40,000 nt of DNA from assembly GCF_044789845.1 (NCBI RefSeq), contig NZ_CP085252.1, positions 2,795,932 to 2,835,931 of the forward strand, read 5' to 3'. Of this stretch, positions 26,613 to 27,957 are shown piece by piece. Position 1 is the stretch's first letter; every line of letters starts with the position of its first letter. The stretch is from Jeotgalibacillus malaysiensis. GTDB lineage: Bacteria; Bacillota; Bacilli; Bacillales; Jeotgalibacillaceae. Under the pieces are notes generated by a model. That model saw nothing but the letters and a program-made list of their open reading frames with translations. It was not told the origin of the DNA and ran no database searches. The position numbers and the translations under genes are program-made.

Positions 26613-26978
26613 ATGTCAAACAAATGCCCAAAGTGCGGCAGTAATTTATCCGAAGACGCTTATGAGGAGATAACTGAACTCGAAGATTGTTCTATCCAGG
26701 TCGATGCTTTCCCCGCTCTTGTCTGCACAAATCAATGTGGCTATTACAAACGCCTTATTGCTTTACCAGAGATTATTGCGCAGGAGTCGAATGATCGGTT
26801 TTTGCTGCTTTATCCTGGTGAGCGCGGAAGGATTCTGGAGTTAGGAAGTATGCTGCTTTGGCCGGAGATGAACGTTCATGCACTTGCGGGTAGAGGTTAT
26901 TGGGAGGATTATAACGGCAACCTGGACTTGCAGGACATTATATCAAGGGTTAGGGTGATGAATGAGGATGATTTATAA
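26613..26978 (+). CDS. Small zinc-ribbon protein, hypothetical
   Basis: 121 aa. It has CPKCG near the N-terminus and a second Cys pair CTNQCG. The SD GAGGGAGG lies 7 nt upstream, inside the IS identity block. The 3' end overlaps the next gene by 17 nt. Confidence 0.65.
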   Translation: MSNKCPKCGSNLSEDAYEEITELEDCSIQVDAFPALVCTNQCGYYKRLIALPEIIAQESNDRFLLLYPGERGRILELGSMLLWPEMNVHALAGRGYWEDYNGNLDLQDIISRVRVMNEDDL

Positions 26979-27957
26979 TTTTCGAATTGATCGTACAAAA
27001 CGAGCATTTTTAAGAGAGCAGCTGTTAAACAAAAGCATCCTTTATCAGGGATGGGGTGCGGTCCCGCTGACTGATGAGAAGTTTTCAGTTAAAACGGTAA
27101 CGCATTATAAGCTGAAGTCAAAGCATCTACCGAATAATTTAAAACGGATGCGTCAGTTTAAAAAGGGTGATGTGCTGATGGTGCCGCATTTTCCCGGGCG
27201 TGGGTATTTAACATTATTGATTGTAGCAGCTGATTATCCCGATTGTTATGTATGGAATGATAACTCTGAGAACAGCCTGAATCATGGCATACGCGTCAGT
27301 GAGGTGTATGGCCTCGATAAGAGCATCAGTATGTATCATTTTTCACTGGTGAAATGGTACGGTAAATTGCCAGGTATGCGCATGCCTGTTTACAAAGCTG
27401 GAGATTTAGCAGAGCCTGTTGAGCAATTACTTACTGTTTTAAGAAACAATCCGGAATATATATTTGAGAAATCCACCGTTACAGAGTATCTGGAAAGTCT
27501 GGCTGAACAACCATTAAATCGTATGCAGGAACAGCTTTATCATCTAAATGCGAGCAGAAGTGCGTTGTCTTTTGAAAAGATGTGTGAGCATCTGATCGAG
27601 CGCTATGGTTATGAATTGGTGAAGCGGAACTGTTTTGACAGGGATGGTGGCGATGCAGATGCGATTTTCTTTAATCATGGTGAACATGAAACGCCATTCG
27701 GACCCGCAAAATCATACTTATTTGTCCAGATAAAAAAGCACCGGGGCACAACACGTGAACATGCCTTCCATCAATTAATTAAAATCATGCAAACTAAATC
27801 TGACCTCACCCCAGCCACCGGTTGTGTGATTACACTCGCGGATTCATTTGCTGAAGAAGCTTTAAAGCTTGGATCTGATGAAGGCATTCGTTCGATTAAC
27901 GGACCTGAGCTGTGCGGGATGATTAATGATAAGGTGTTAGGAAGGATTGGTGTTTAA
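26962..27957 (+). CDS. Protein with C-terminal Mrr-type restriction endonuclease (PD-(D/E)xK) domain and uncharacterised N-terminal domain
   Basis: 331 aa. Residues ~200-320 read LSFEKMCEHLIERYGYELVKRN...DRDGGDADAIFF...YLFVQIKKH. This matches the Mrr_cat pattern (FE-x-L...GY...D-G-G-x-D...V-Q-x-K). The N-terminal ~150 aa contain ILYQGWG and FKKGDVLMV. Confidence 0.7.
   Translation: MRMIYNFRIDRTKRAFLREQLLNKSILYQGWGAVPLTDEKFSVKTVTHYKLKSKHLPNNLKRMRQFKKGDVLMVPHFPGRGYLTLLIVAADYPDCYVWNDNSENSLNHGIRVSEVYGLDKSISMYHFSLVKWYGKLPGMRMPVYKAGDLAEPVEQLLTVLRNNPEYIFEKSTVTEYLESLAEQPLNRMQEQLYHLNASRSALSFEKMCEHLIERYGYELVKRNCFDRDGGDADAIFFNHGEHETPFGPAKSYLFVQIKKHRGTTREHAFHQLIKIMQTKSDLTPATGCVITLADSFAEEALKLGSDEGIRSINGPELCGMINDKVLGRIGV

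What the first reader, a model, noticed from the sequence alone, without database searches (positions are those of the whole stretch)
26613..27957. Translationally coupled zinc-ribbon protein plus Mrr-type PD-(D/E)xK nuclease with an unknown N-terminal domain: candidate defence module
The 121-aa ORF has two Cys pairs (CPKCG ... CTNQCG) and overlaps the 331-aa ORF by 17 nt, which suggests co-translation. The larger protein ends in a clear Mrr_cat-like nuclease core: FEKMCEHLIERYGYEL, then DGGDADAIFF, then VQIKKH. Its first ~150 residues (ILYQGWG, FKKGDVLMVPHF, LTLLIVAADY) form a separate domain. The layout of that domain reminds me of PUA/EVE-like modified-base readers, but that is inference only. 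No methyltransferase or ATPase partner is present, so this is not a classical type I-III restriction system. A type IV-like or novel two-component nuclease defence is plausible. The pair sits beside comK and immediately outside an IS110-type element, and REPs bound it on the right.
Basis: partly seen in the sequence, partly recalled or inferred. Interest (0 to 1): 0.7.

Follow-up and report, generated by a model that had tools for sequence, protein, structure and literature searches.

The report
Mrr-type defence nuclease with zinc-ribbon partner
This is a rare two-domain DNA-cutting enzyme of the sensor-plus-nuclease type that bacteria use against phages, preceded in some Bacillus relatives by a small acidic zinc-binding protein that is co-inherited but clearly dispensable; it is a plausible, untested defence gene pair and a variant of a known design, not a new kind of system.

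Summary
Both ORFs are real. The 331-aa protein of Jeotgalibacillus malaysiensis has a bona fide Mrr_cat PD-QxK nuclease core (Pfam 40.6 bits; Foldseek hits to NucS/EndoMS and AF1548). It also has a separate, strongly conserved N-terminal domain of about 145 aa that matches no Pfam or PDB sequence. Sub-threshold fold hits for that domain are dominated by PUA-superfamily readers (YTH, EVE, ASCH). The domain is rare (52 representatives among 1.84 billion proteins). It connects through intermediates to the PADLOC single-gene candidate PDC-S02, and once it is fused to an NsnB-like defence ATPase instead of the nuclease. Homologues sit in defence or mobile-element neighbourhoods in many phyla. The 121-aa zinc-ribbon protein is under purifying selection (dN/dS 0.10-0.17) and tightly coupled to the nuclease. 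It occurs only in a Bacillales subclade, where it has been truncated or lost repeatedly while the nuclease stayed intact, and it is absent from all nine loci outside that clade. It is therefore an accessory partner, not an obligatory antitoxin. An IS110-family element ends 7 nt before its ATG. Best reading: a solitary type IV-like sensor-nuclease with a lineage-specific modulator. This is a new variant of a known kind and of moderate interest.

The parts
26613..26978 (+). Small acidic zinc-ribbon protein gene (121 aa, pI 4.3, net charge -11)
   Evidence: The ORF is seen and is 100% identical to P0016. A profile search finds only 13 clusters among 5.8 billion sequences. dN/dS is 0.10-0.17 and the acidity is conserved.
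26613..26756 (+). Zinc-ribbon module (aa 1-48; CxxC ... CxxxC), the only part kept in the ribbon-only relatives
   Evidence: C5, C8 and C42 are invariant. There is a sub-threshold YgiT/MqsA-type finger match in 4 of 8 members, best E 0.0011. Ribbon-only forms occur in L001, L013 and L019.
26757..26975 (+). C-terminal domain of the small protein (aa 49-121), no known family
   Evidence: The motifs EVIAQRD, FLLLY, ARILDL and KGYWE are conserved. No Pfam or PDB match was found.
26962..26978 (+). Gene overlap: 17 nt from the longest ORF, 11 nt from the likely start ATG 26968
   Evidence: Equivalent junctions in relatives are shown.
26968..27957 (+). Sensor-nuclease gene (329 aa from the conserved start; 331 aa from ATG 26962)
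26968..27396 (+). N-terminal alpha/beta domain (aa 3-145), candidate PUA-like reader. Motifs: FRIDR, QGWG, KKGDVLMVPHFP, NHGI, WYGKL
   Evidence: AF2 models are. The domain has 52 representatives among 1.84 billion proteins. Superfamily-wide conserved residues are listed.
27397..27555 (+). Helical linker (aa 146-198)
   Evidence: The AF2 secondary structure shows helices at 147-162 and 173-193.
27556..27954 (+). Mrr_cat PD-QxK nuclease core. E205 = 27574-27576, D231 = 27652-27654, D233 = 27658-27660, Q256 = 27727-27729, K258 = 27733-27735
   Evidence: Pfam PF04471 scores 40.6 bits. The catalytic residues are invariant. Foldseek finds 5gke at E 3e-4 and 1y88 at rmsd 2.6 A.
24830..26605 (+). IS110-family insertion sequence (transposase 24953-26233) whose right end supplies or abuts the Shine-Dalgarno of the small gene
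   Evidence: It is 99.55% identical to the second copy at 13019-11244. The junctions are shown and the Pfam hits.
27966..28031 (.). Two REP-like palindromes between the convergent nuclease and comK genes (probable transcript end)

Best explanation
The 331-aa protein is a single-polypeptide sensor-nuclease of the type IV-like restriction design. It is a rare, divergent branch of the architecture that PADLOC lists as candidate PDC-S02.

Shown:
- It has a C-terminal Mrr-type PD-QxK nuclease core with an intact catalytic set (E205, D231/D233, Q256-x-K258).
- It has a separate, conserved N-terminal domain that is portable between effector types.
- Homologues lie in defence or mobile-element neighbourhoods.

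Inferred:
- The N-domain has a PUA-like fold (YTH/EVE/ASCH type).
- It recognises a feature of foreign nucleic acid, most likely a modified base held by the conserved aromatic, basic and other residues (R8, W31, D70, H108, W132, Y133).
- Recognition licenses the nuclease core, possibly as a dimer through the helical linker, to cut that DNA.
- No methylase is needed because the host's own DNA lacks the mark.

The 121-aa protein is a real, co-translated accessory confined to a Bacillales subclade. It is strongly acidic and consists of a YgiT/MqsA-like zinc ribbon followed by a novel ~70-aa domain. I infer that it binds the nuclease and modulates it, most likely restraining it until needed. It is not required to tolerate the nuclease.

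In this genome an IS110-family element has inserted 7 nt upstream of the small gene's ATG. Transcription of the pair now has to come from or through the IS.
For: Nuclease core:
- Pfam Mrr_cat scores 40.6 bits for the window protein, all 15 family members match, and the best E-value is 3e-19.
- The catalytic residues are invariant in the family and at least 90% conserved across the superfamily.
- Foldseek PDB hits are NucS/EndoMS, AF1548 and PspGI.

N-domain:
- The AF2 models are confident (pLDDT 89.5 and 84.4).
- The domain is rare and almost always paired with Mrr_cat.
- Once it is fused to an NsnB-like AAA_15/DUF3696 ATPase, next to PDC-M47B.
- The distant relative P0061 matches PDC-S02 over residues 5-221 at E 8e-11.
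- The top sub-threshold fold hits in two libraries are YTH, EVE (VcaM4I, Atu2648, an EVE protein of Bodo saltans virus), ASCH and DUF3850.
- PUA-superfamily sensors fused to nucleases, including Mrr-like PD-QxK, are an established design for modification-dependent enzymes (PMC6765204, PMC7897488).

Context:
- PDC-M09A/B lies directly upstream in L016, L022 and L023.
- A PLD-helicase-DUF3427 protein is the neighbour in L018.
- A pAgo-like gene follows 3 nt downstream in L008.
- L003 has a GajA/OLD-like ATPase, L004 has REase-ARP and L009 has a NERD nuclease.
- No methylase was found among the window neighbours tested.

Small protein:
- dN/dS is 0.10-0.17, and its dN tracks that of the nuclease.
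- The junction to the nuclease is conserved.
- pI is 4.2-4.5 in all members.
- Where it could be checked, it is found only next to this nuclease family or its remnant.
- In B. methanolicus it is fused in frame to the nuclease N-terminus.

IS element: the boundaries and junctions are shown.
Against: - No sequence profile links the N-domain to EVE, YTH or ASCH.
- The window protein itself scores only 21 bits against PDC-S02, and only in its C-terminal half.
- A PDC-S02 representative tested in E. coli B was not among the candidates that protected against T4, T5 or T7 (10.1101/2024.09.26.614923).
- Nothing shows that the small protein touches the nuclease. N-domain charge varies from -2 to +13 among members, so charge complementarity is not general. 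The B. methanolicus fusion is truncated and probably a decaying locus.
- The IS insertion may have silenced the pair in this strain.
Confidence: 0.55

Rival explanations
1. The pair is a type II toxin-antitoxin or abortive-infection module. The small zinc-ribbon protein is an antitoxin that neutralises a toxic nuclease, and phage infection or antitoxin decay frees the nuclease to kill the cell.
For: - The gene order and overlap are typical of antitoxin-first operons.
- There are weak matches to antitoxin-type fingers: YokU at E 0.031, and YgiT/MqsA at E 0.001-0.003 in 4 of 8 members.
- The small protein is acidic.
- The two genes are co-inherited with matching divergence.
- An in-frame fusion exists in B. 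methanolicus.
Against: - An intact nuclease gene persists without any small gene in L012, L014/15, L017 and all of L003-L011. It persists with only the 50-60-aa ribbon in L001, L013 and L019. An obligatory antitoxin could not be lost this often.
- All antitoxin-family matches are below the curated cut-offs.
- No DNA-binding (HTH, RHH or AbrB) module for autoregulation was found.
Confidence: 0.17
2. The small protein is a positive specificity or recruitment subunit, not a brake. It would deliver the nuclease to a target or sense a phage component, making this a true two-component defence system in the Bacillales clade.
For: - The small protein shows purifying selection over both of its domains.
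- It is exclusively associated with this nuclease family.
- Translational coupling would favour equimolar synthesis.
Against: - The full set of conserved N-domain and catalytic residues is the same in nucleases with and without the partner, so the nuclease looks self-sufficient.
- The partner has been lost or truncated repeatedly.
- An acidic protein is unlikely to bind DNA itself.
Confidence: 0.15
3. The nuclease is a housekeeping or repair enzyme (NucS/EndoMS-like or Holliday-junction-type), or it is an inactive remnant in this strain, and the small ORF is merely a coupled leader peptide. On this view the locus is not a defence system.
For: - The best structural matches of the core are the repair nucleases NucS/EndoMS.
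- No phage, plasmid or viral-contig copies were found.
- An IS has displaced any upstream promoter.
- One PDC-S02 test was negative.
Against: - The family is extremely sparse and patchy (15 clusters among 5.8 billion sequences, scattered over many phyla), which is unlike a housekeeping gene.
- Neighbours are repeatedly defence genes.
- Several copies are pseudogenised (L009, L011, L021), as is typical of defence-gene turnover.
- The resemblance to NucS is limited to the generic PD-(D/E)xK core (about 125 aligned columns).
- The small ORF has conserved residues throughout and a low dN/dS.
Confidence: 0.1

Closest known systems
PADLOC candidate PDC-S02 (single-gene phage-defence candidate of about 320-350 aa, with an N-terminal domain plus Mrr_cat)
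   Same: The length and two-domain layout are the same. The Mrr_cat C-terminus matches weakly (E 3.7e-5). The N-domain is homologous through intermediates: profile A3 finds P0061 at E 1e-6, and P0061 matches PDC-S02 over residues 5-221 at E 8e-11. The motifs FRID, LRQGWG, GD..P..P and D..H are shared.
   Different: The window protein is not recognised by the PDC-S02 models in its N-terminal half, so PADLOC would not call it. It belongs to a small separate branch of 15 clusters. PDC-S02 is a single-gene candidate with no small partner. PDC-S02 itself is not validated, and one representative was not among the protecting candidates in E. coli B.
PUA-superfamily modification-dependent restriction endonucleases (e.g. 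EVE-HNH VcaM4I/TspA15I, SRA-nuclease MspJI-type enzymes; Lutz et al. 2019, PMC6765204; Pastor et al. 2021, PMC7897488)
   Same: The design is the same: an N-terminal reader domain fused to a nuclease, with no methyltransferase and a defence context. VcaM4I appears among the fold hits (rank 10 for the full-length model with probability 0.82; rank 22 for the N-domain).
   Different: The nuclease here is Mrr-type PD-QxK, not HNH. The N-domain has no sequence similarity to EVE, YTH, SRA or ASCH, and fold similarity is below significance. Modification dependence is untested. The characterised enzymes have no zinc-ribbon partner (from my knowledge of the cited papers).
E. coli Mrr (type IV restriction enzyme)
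   Same: It shares the Mrr_cat catalytic domain with the D...QxK motif and has no cognate methylase.
   Different: Mrr's N-terminal winged-helix domain (Mrr_N, PF14338) is absent here and is replaced by an unrelated alpha/beta domain plus a helical linker.
END nucleases (inactive EndoIII sensor fused to a type IIS-like nuclease; PMC12191111)
   Same: The logic is analogous: a stand-alone sensor-nuclease fusion without a methylase that restricts hypermodified phage DNA, with modular sensing and cleavage domains.
   Different: The sensor (iEndoIII) and the nuclease domain are both different, so there is no homology. The small proteins known to bind END nucleases are phage-encoded inhibitors, not host-encoded partners.
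MqsA/YgiT-type and YokU-type zinc-finger antitoxins
   Same: The small protein has an N-terminal CxxC...CxxxC ribbon, sits upstream of and overlaps a nuclease gene, and gives weak profile matches.
   Different: All matches are below the curated cut-offs. There is no HTH DNA-binding domain, and the partner is a PD-(D/E)xK DNase-type protein, not an MqsR-type RNase. The small protein is dispensable for keeping the nuclease gene.

Membership tests
Mrr_cat / PD-(D/E)xK nuclease superfamily | Profile match above the Pfam gathering threshold | tested here: met
   PF04471 scores 40.6 bits against a cut-off of 21, over residues 201-321. All 15 family members match.
Mrr_cat / PD-(D/E)xK nuclease superfamily | Catalytic E ... 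D ... (E/Q)xK residues on the alpha-beta-beta-beta core | tested here: met
   E205, D231/D233, Q256 and K258 are invariant. They lie on helix 204-214 and strands 231-238 and 252-258 of the model. Foldseek finds 5gke, 2vld and 1y88.
E. coli Mrr family (type IV REase Mrr) | N-terminal Mrr_N winged-helix DNA-binding domain | tested here: not met
   No Mrr_N hit was found in any of 15 members at E <= 0.1. The N-domain topology is beta-alpha-beta-alpha-alpha-beta4-alpha.
Type IV (modification-dependent) restriction | No cognate methyltransferase | tested here: met
   Window ORFs from 17896 to 30692 show no methylase domain. Among relatives only L011 has an adjacent N6_N4 methylase, and its nuclease is frameshifted.
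Type IV (modification-dependent) restriction | Cleavage depends on a modified base in the substrate | not testable with these tools
   This needs biochemistry or phage assays.
PUA-like reader superfamily (EVE/YTH/ASCH/SRA) | Significant sequence or fold match of the N-domain | tested here: inconclusive
PADLOC PDC-S02 | Full-length match to the PDC-S02 HMMs | tested here: not met
   Only residues 167-319 match, at 21 bits. Homology of the N-domain is shown only transitively, through P0061.
Type II toxin-antitoxin pair | Small upstream gene translationally coupled to the toxin gene | tested here: met
   The overlap is 11/17 nt in the window. Relatives have an ATGA overlap or a 2-nt gap.
Type II toxin-antitoxin pair | Toxin gene is not maintained without its antitoxin | tested here: not met
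   An intact nuclease occurs without the small gene in L012, L014, L017 and L003-L008 and L010. It occurs with a ribbon-only remnant in L001, L013 and L019.
YgiT/MqsA-type zinc finger (TIGR03831) and YokU (PF14122) | Score above the curated cut-off | tested here: not met
   The YgiT score is 17.8 bits against a cut-off of 20.2, and 4 of 8 members match at E <= 1. YokU scores 14.7 bits against 27, in one member only.
IS110 family (the flanking element) | DEDD_Tnp_IS110 plus Transposase_20 domains | tested here: met
   The scores are 106.9 and 79.4 bits. Two copies define the ends.

The most novel reading that the evidence does not exclude
The N-terminal domain is a previously unrecognised class of nucleic-acid-modification reader, a far-diverged PUA-like fold shared with PDC-S02 and portable onto ATPase effectors. 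In the Bacillales branch the nuclease is held in check by a dedicated host-encoded acidic zinc-ribbon 'safety-catch' protein of a new family. The pair would then work as a hybrid between a type IV restriction enzyme and a toxin-antitoxin/abortive-infection switch.
Probability: 0.2. Interest if true: 0.65.

Novelty: new variant of a known kind. Interest (0 to 1): 0.42.

Why it matters
If the reading is right, it gives a function and testable residues to an uncharacterised sensor domain that underlies the PADLOC candidate PDC-S02. The residues to test in the sensor are R8, W31, D70, H108, W132 and Y133, and in the nuclease D231, Q256 and K258. PDC-S02 is reported among the most abundant candidate systems in deep-sea cold-seep microbial genomes and has been detected in Pseudomonas aeruginosa clinical isolates. 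The reading would add another reader module to the toolbox of modification-dependent nucleases, which are useful for epigenetic mapping. The zinc-ribbon partner would be an example of a host-encoded modulator of a stand-alone restriction nuclease that can be gained and lost. That bears on how cells manage the self-toxicity of methylase-free nucleases. None of this overturns current concepts; it extends a known design.

Tried and rejected
1. Larger conserved operon with the upstream 441-aa and 736-aa ORFs. Before the IS insertion the pair lay about 55 nt downstream of them, and L017 and L020 have genes of 735 and 737 aa nearby. Rejected: there is no similarity, and the 441-aa match to PDC-M09B is marginal and lies in a Gly/Ala-rich stretch.
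2. Functional link to comK. The adjacency is not conserved in any relative.
3. REPs as boundaries of a mobile module. The same palindrome occurs 19 times in the window.
4. Charge complementarity between the acidic small protein and a basic N-domain. It holds in the window (+13) but not across the family, where the range is -2 to +13.
5. The B. methanolicus fusion as Rosetta-stone proof of interaction. The fused ORF stops after 64 nuclease residues and is probably a decaying locus. I could not fetch its contig.
6. Ribbon-only forms as evidence of a minimal functional unit. L021 shows that the ribbon-only state can arise by nonsense decay, with nuclease loss. L013, however, looks like a clean in-frame deletion.
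7. Sequence-level links of either protein to solved structures. None were found.
8. Carriage on phages or plasmids. None was found.
10. Rfam scans of the window and of the IS tail found nothing.
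Full report
**1. Observation**

The window carries an ORF at 26613-26978 (121 aa) and an ORF at 26962-27957 (331 aa), both on the + strand. Both are identical to annotated proteins of Jeotgalibacillus malaysiensis: P0016, a 'hypothetical protein', and P0001, a 'restriction endonuclease'. 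The small protein has CPKC at residues 5-8 and CTNQC at residues 38-42.

The longest reading of the second ORF overlaps the first by 17 nt. However, every homologue starts MIYNFRIDR and NCBI starts the protein at M3. The probable start is therefore ATG 26968, and the overlap is 11 nt. In relatives the junction is equally tight. L002 has an ATGA overlap, and L016, L018 and L020 have a 2-nt gap. In those loci the last codons of the small gene (…GGAGTGGTAG) carry the Shine-Dalgarno of the nuclease gene.

**2. The nuclease**

Pfam Mrr_cat matches residues 201-321 at 40.6 bits against a cut-off of 21. All 15 family members match, with a best E-value of 3e-19. E205, D231/D233, Q256 and K258 are invariant. 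D, Q and K remain at least 90% conserved in a 26-member superfamily alignment.

An AlphaFold2 model (mean pLDDT 89.5) shows three parts: an alpha/beta N-domain (about 1-145), a helical linker (147-193) and an alpha-beta-beta-beta-alpha core. Foldseek against the PDB finds NucS/EndoMS (5gke, E 3e-4), AF1548 (1y88, rmsd 2.6 A) and PspGI, all through the nuclease core only. No sequence relative has a solved structure.

**3. The N-terminal domain**

The domain is highly conserved within the family, with the motifs RIDR, QGWG, GDxLxVPHxP, YPxCY, LNHxI, WYGKL and RLPI. It has no Pfam, NCBIfam or PDB sequence match.

A profile of the domain searched against 1.84 billion representative proteins finds only 52 proteins at E <= 1e-3. 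Nearly all are 320-350 aa, and Mrr_cat was confirmed in most of those I scanned. There are two informative exceptions and links:
- P0037 (559 aa) carries the same domain fused to an AAA_15/AAA_21/DUF3696 ATPase. That ATPase scores 202 bits against the Menshen NsnB model and sits next to a PDC-M47B gene. The domain is therefore a portable module attached to different defence effectors.
- The distant relative P0061 matches the PADLOC candidate PDC-S02 over residues 5-221 at E 8e-11. The window protein itself matches PDC-S02 only weakly, and only in its C-terminal half (21 bits). The family is thus a divergent branch of the PDC-S02 architecture.

Across that superfamily the conserved N-domain positions reduce to R in FRID, G-W in QGWG, D in GD, two prolines and H in DxxH.

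**4. Fold of the N-domain**

An N-domain-only model (pLDDT 84.4) has no significant PDB match (best E 0.31). The top 50 are nonetheless dominated by YTH domains (TM 0.29-0.37), together with the EVE-HNH enzyme VcaM4I, the EVE protein Atu2648 and the PUA-like domain of ATP sulfurylase. SH2 domains form the only other recurring group, with lower TM of 0.16-0.20.

In the independent BFVD library the one significant hit is a 336-aa uncharacterised Myoviridae protein (E 8e-5, TM 0.58), probably the same architecture. The named near-threshold hits are an EVE-domain protein (E 0.055, probability 0.82), DUF3850 and ASCH.

**5. Distribution and context**

The family has 15 clusters among 5.8 billion sequences. 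It occurs in Bacillales and, at 29-42% identity, in Thermohalobacter, Heliobacterium, Planctomycetota, Ignavibacteriales, Zixibacteria, Treponema, Gemmatimonadota, Rhodothermaceae and Terriglobia. No relative was found in viral contigs, phage genomes or plasmids.

Neighbours are repeatedly defence or mobile-element genes:
- PDC-M09A/B directly upstream in L016, L022 and L023 (376 and 616 bits).
- A PLD-helicase-DUF3427 protein in L018.
- A pAgo-like gene 3 nt downstream in L008.
- A fragmented GajA/OLD-like ATPase in L003, REase-ARP in L004 and a NERD nuclease in L009.

Several copies are pseudogenes: L009 and L011 are frameshifted, and in L021 the nuclease is deleted. Sparse, patchy occurrence with frequent decay is typical of defence genes.

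No methyltransferase or ATPase was found among the window neighbours tested.

One PDC-S02 representative was tested by others in E. coli B against T4, T5 and T7 and was not among the protecting candidates (10.1101/2024.09.26.614923). This is a weak negative for the wider architecture.

**6. The small protein**

The word-indexed search found only the protein itself. However, tblastn on the fetched loci and a profile search recovered 13 clusters. Wherever context could be read, the gene lies immediately upstream of this nuclease family or of its remnant.

The distribution in the Bacillales clade is:
- Full-length: the window, L002, L016, L018, L020, L022/23 and the P0005/P0019 contig.
- Ribbon-only (47-60 aa): L001, L013 and L019.
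- Absent: L012 (Priestia), L014/15 and L017.

It is also absent from all nine loci from other phyla.

L013 looks like a clean in-frame deletion that preserves the terminal '…EW*' and the junction. L021 shows nonsense decay of the second domain with loss of the nuclease.

dN/dS is 0.10-0.17, compared with 0.06-0.21 for the nuclease, and dN values match in each pairwise comparison. It is therefore a genuine gene, co-inherited with the nuclease.

The protein is uniformly acidic (pI 4.2-4.5, net charge -11 to -13). That argues against a DNA-binding role and for a protein partner.

The only family hints are sub-threshold matches to antitoxin-type fingers: YgiT/MqsA in 4 of 8 members with best E 0.0011, and YokU in one member. 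The profile has no PDB match.

In Bacillus methanolicus the small protein is fused in frame to the first 64 residues of the nuclease and then stops (P0024). This is suggestive of a physical link, but the locus is probably decaying.

**7. Mechanism**

Shown:
- An intact Mrr-type nuclease core.
- A separate, conserved and portable N-domain.
- A defence-type genomic context.
- A coupled small gene that is under selection but dispensable.

Inferred:
- The N-domain reads a feature of foreign nucleic acid, most likely a modified base.
- That recognition licenses the nuclease.
- No methylase is needed.
- The zinc-ribbon protein binds and modulates the enzyme, most likely restraining it.

The classical antitoxin reading is disfavoured because intact nuclease genes persist without the small gene in most loci. 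The housekeeping reading is disfavoured by the distribution and context.

**8. Local genome setting**

Comparison of two copies that are 99.55% identical over 1776 bp bounds the IS110-family element at 24830-26605. The second copy is at 13019-11244. Both copies end '…TTTTAAGAGGGAGG' 6-7 nt before the ATG of a same-strand gene. The apparent Shine-Dalgarno of the small gene is therefore IS sequence or target sequence shared by both sites, and any native promoter is now 1.8 kb away.

Before the insertion the pair lay about 55 nt downstream of a low-GC 441-aa and 736-aa gene pair, with one REP between them. Those genes are not conserved with the nuclease elsewhere.

The two REP palindromes at 27966-28031 separate the convergent nuclease and comK genes. 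This REP occurs 19 times in the window. comK adjacency is not conserved, whereas the downstream sigma-factor gene is syntenic in Jeotgalibacillus sp. R-1-5s-1.

**9. Comparison with what is known, and verdict**

The closest known entity is the PADLOC candidate PDC-S02, which has the same layout and a transitively homologous N-domain. The window protein fails the PDC-S02 models over its N-terminal half.

In how it works, it resembles the PUA-superfamily modification-dependent endonucleases (PMC6765204, PMC7897488). By analogy it also resembles the END nucleases (PMC12191111).

It is not an Mrr orthologue because it lacks Mrr_N. It does not meet the definition of a toxin-antitoxin pair.

The host-encoded acidic zinc-ribbon partner has no described counterpart among the characterised enzymes I am aware of.

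Verdict:
- Observation: confirmed.
- Novelty: new variant of a known kind.
- Interest: about 0.4.

Noticed in passing
window 24830-26605 and 11244-13019: There are two copies of an IS110-family element (1776 bp, 8 mismatches, all within 25399-25511). Each ends '...AAGAGGGAGG' 6-7 nt before the ATG of a co-directional downstream gene. The left end begins AAAGGAGC in both copies. This suggests that the element targets, or donates, a Shine-Dalgarno-like sequence. It has a long 372-nt 3' non-coding tail with no Rfam match and a fold z-score of -2.1.
   Followed up: partly
window 24933-24949 and 26594-26610: The translation-initiation regions of the IS transposase (TTACCAAGGAGGACTCC) and of the small gene (TTAAGAGGGAGGACTCC) are alike. 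The second spans the IS/flank junction, and GGGAGG can pair with the flank CUCCC, which might occlude the ribosome-binding site. This is unexplained.
   Followed up: no
window, 19 sites (e.g. 15875, 16775, 18828, 24799, 27976, 28011, 34290, 39794): A REP-like palindrome of about 31 nt with the core GGGTC[N]GACCC occurs 19 times in 40 kb, often in pairs at gene ends.
   Followed up: partly
window 19593-24774: This is a low-GC (30-38%) block holding a DDE transposase (19593-20744) and two large ORFs of 441 and 736 aa with no Pfam match. It is probably a foreign island. The 441-aa protein gives only a marginal PDC-M09B hit in a Gly/Ala-rich segment.
   Followed up: partly
P0024 (Bacillus methanolicus, 191 aa): This protein is an in-frame fusion of the small zinc-ribbon protein (residues 1-127) to the first 64 residues of the nuclease, followed by a stop. 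The contig could not be retrieved.
   Followed up: partly
L013 4846-4998 and L021 3001-3260: The two ribbon-only states arose in different ways. L013 has a clean in-frame deletion that keeps the '...EW*' end and the junction to the nuclease. L021 shows nonsense decay: the DNA still reads FEVMTHRSESCLLL**DGEIGRMLGL, and the nuclease has been replaced by unrelated sequence.
   Followed up: yes
L024 1619-3298 (P0037): The same N-terminal domain is fused to an NsnB-like AAA_15/DUF3696 ATPase, downstream of a PDC-M47B gene (288 bits). The contig is only 3.6 kb, so any nuclease partner is unseen.
   Followed up: partly
L008 7005-8204: A 399-aa gene with similarity to pAgo and to Argonaute-associated proteins (E 6e-19) starts 3 nt after the stop of the nuclease homologue. 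This may be a functional pairing in Gemmatimonadota.
   Followed up: no
L009 6001-6956 and L011 6001-7020: The nuclease homologues in Heliobacterium chlorum and a Terriglobia MAG are broken by frameshifts. The L011 copy lies next to an N6_N4 DNA methylase.
   Followed up: no
BFVD A0A8S5NVT7 (Myoviridae sp. ctEBR14, 336 aa): This is the only significant structural match of the N-domain (E 8e-5, TM 0.58). It is a virus-assigned protein of the same length as the family, which suggests that a distant member is carried by a phage or prophage.
   Followed up: no
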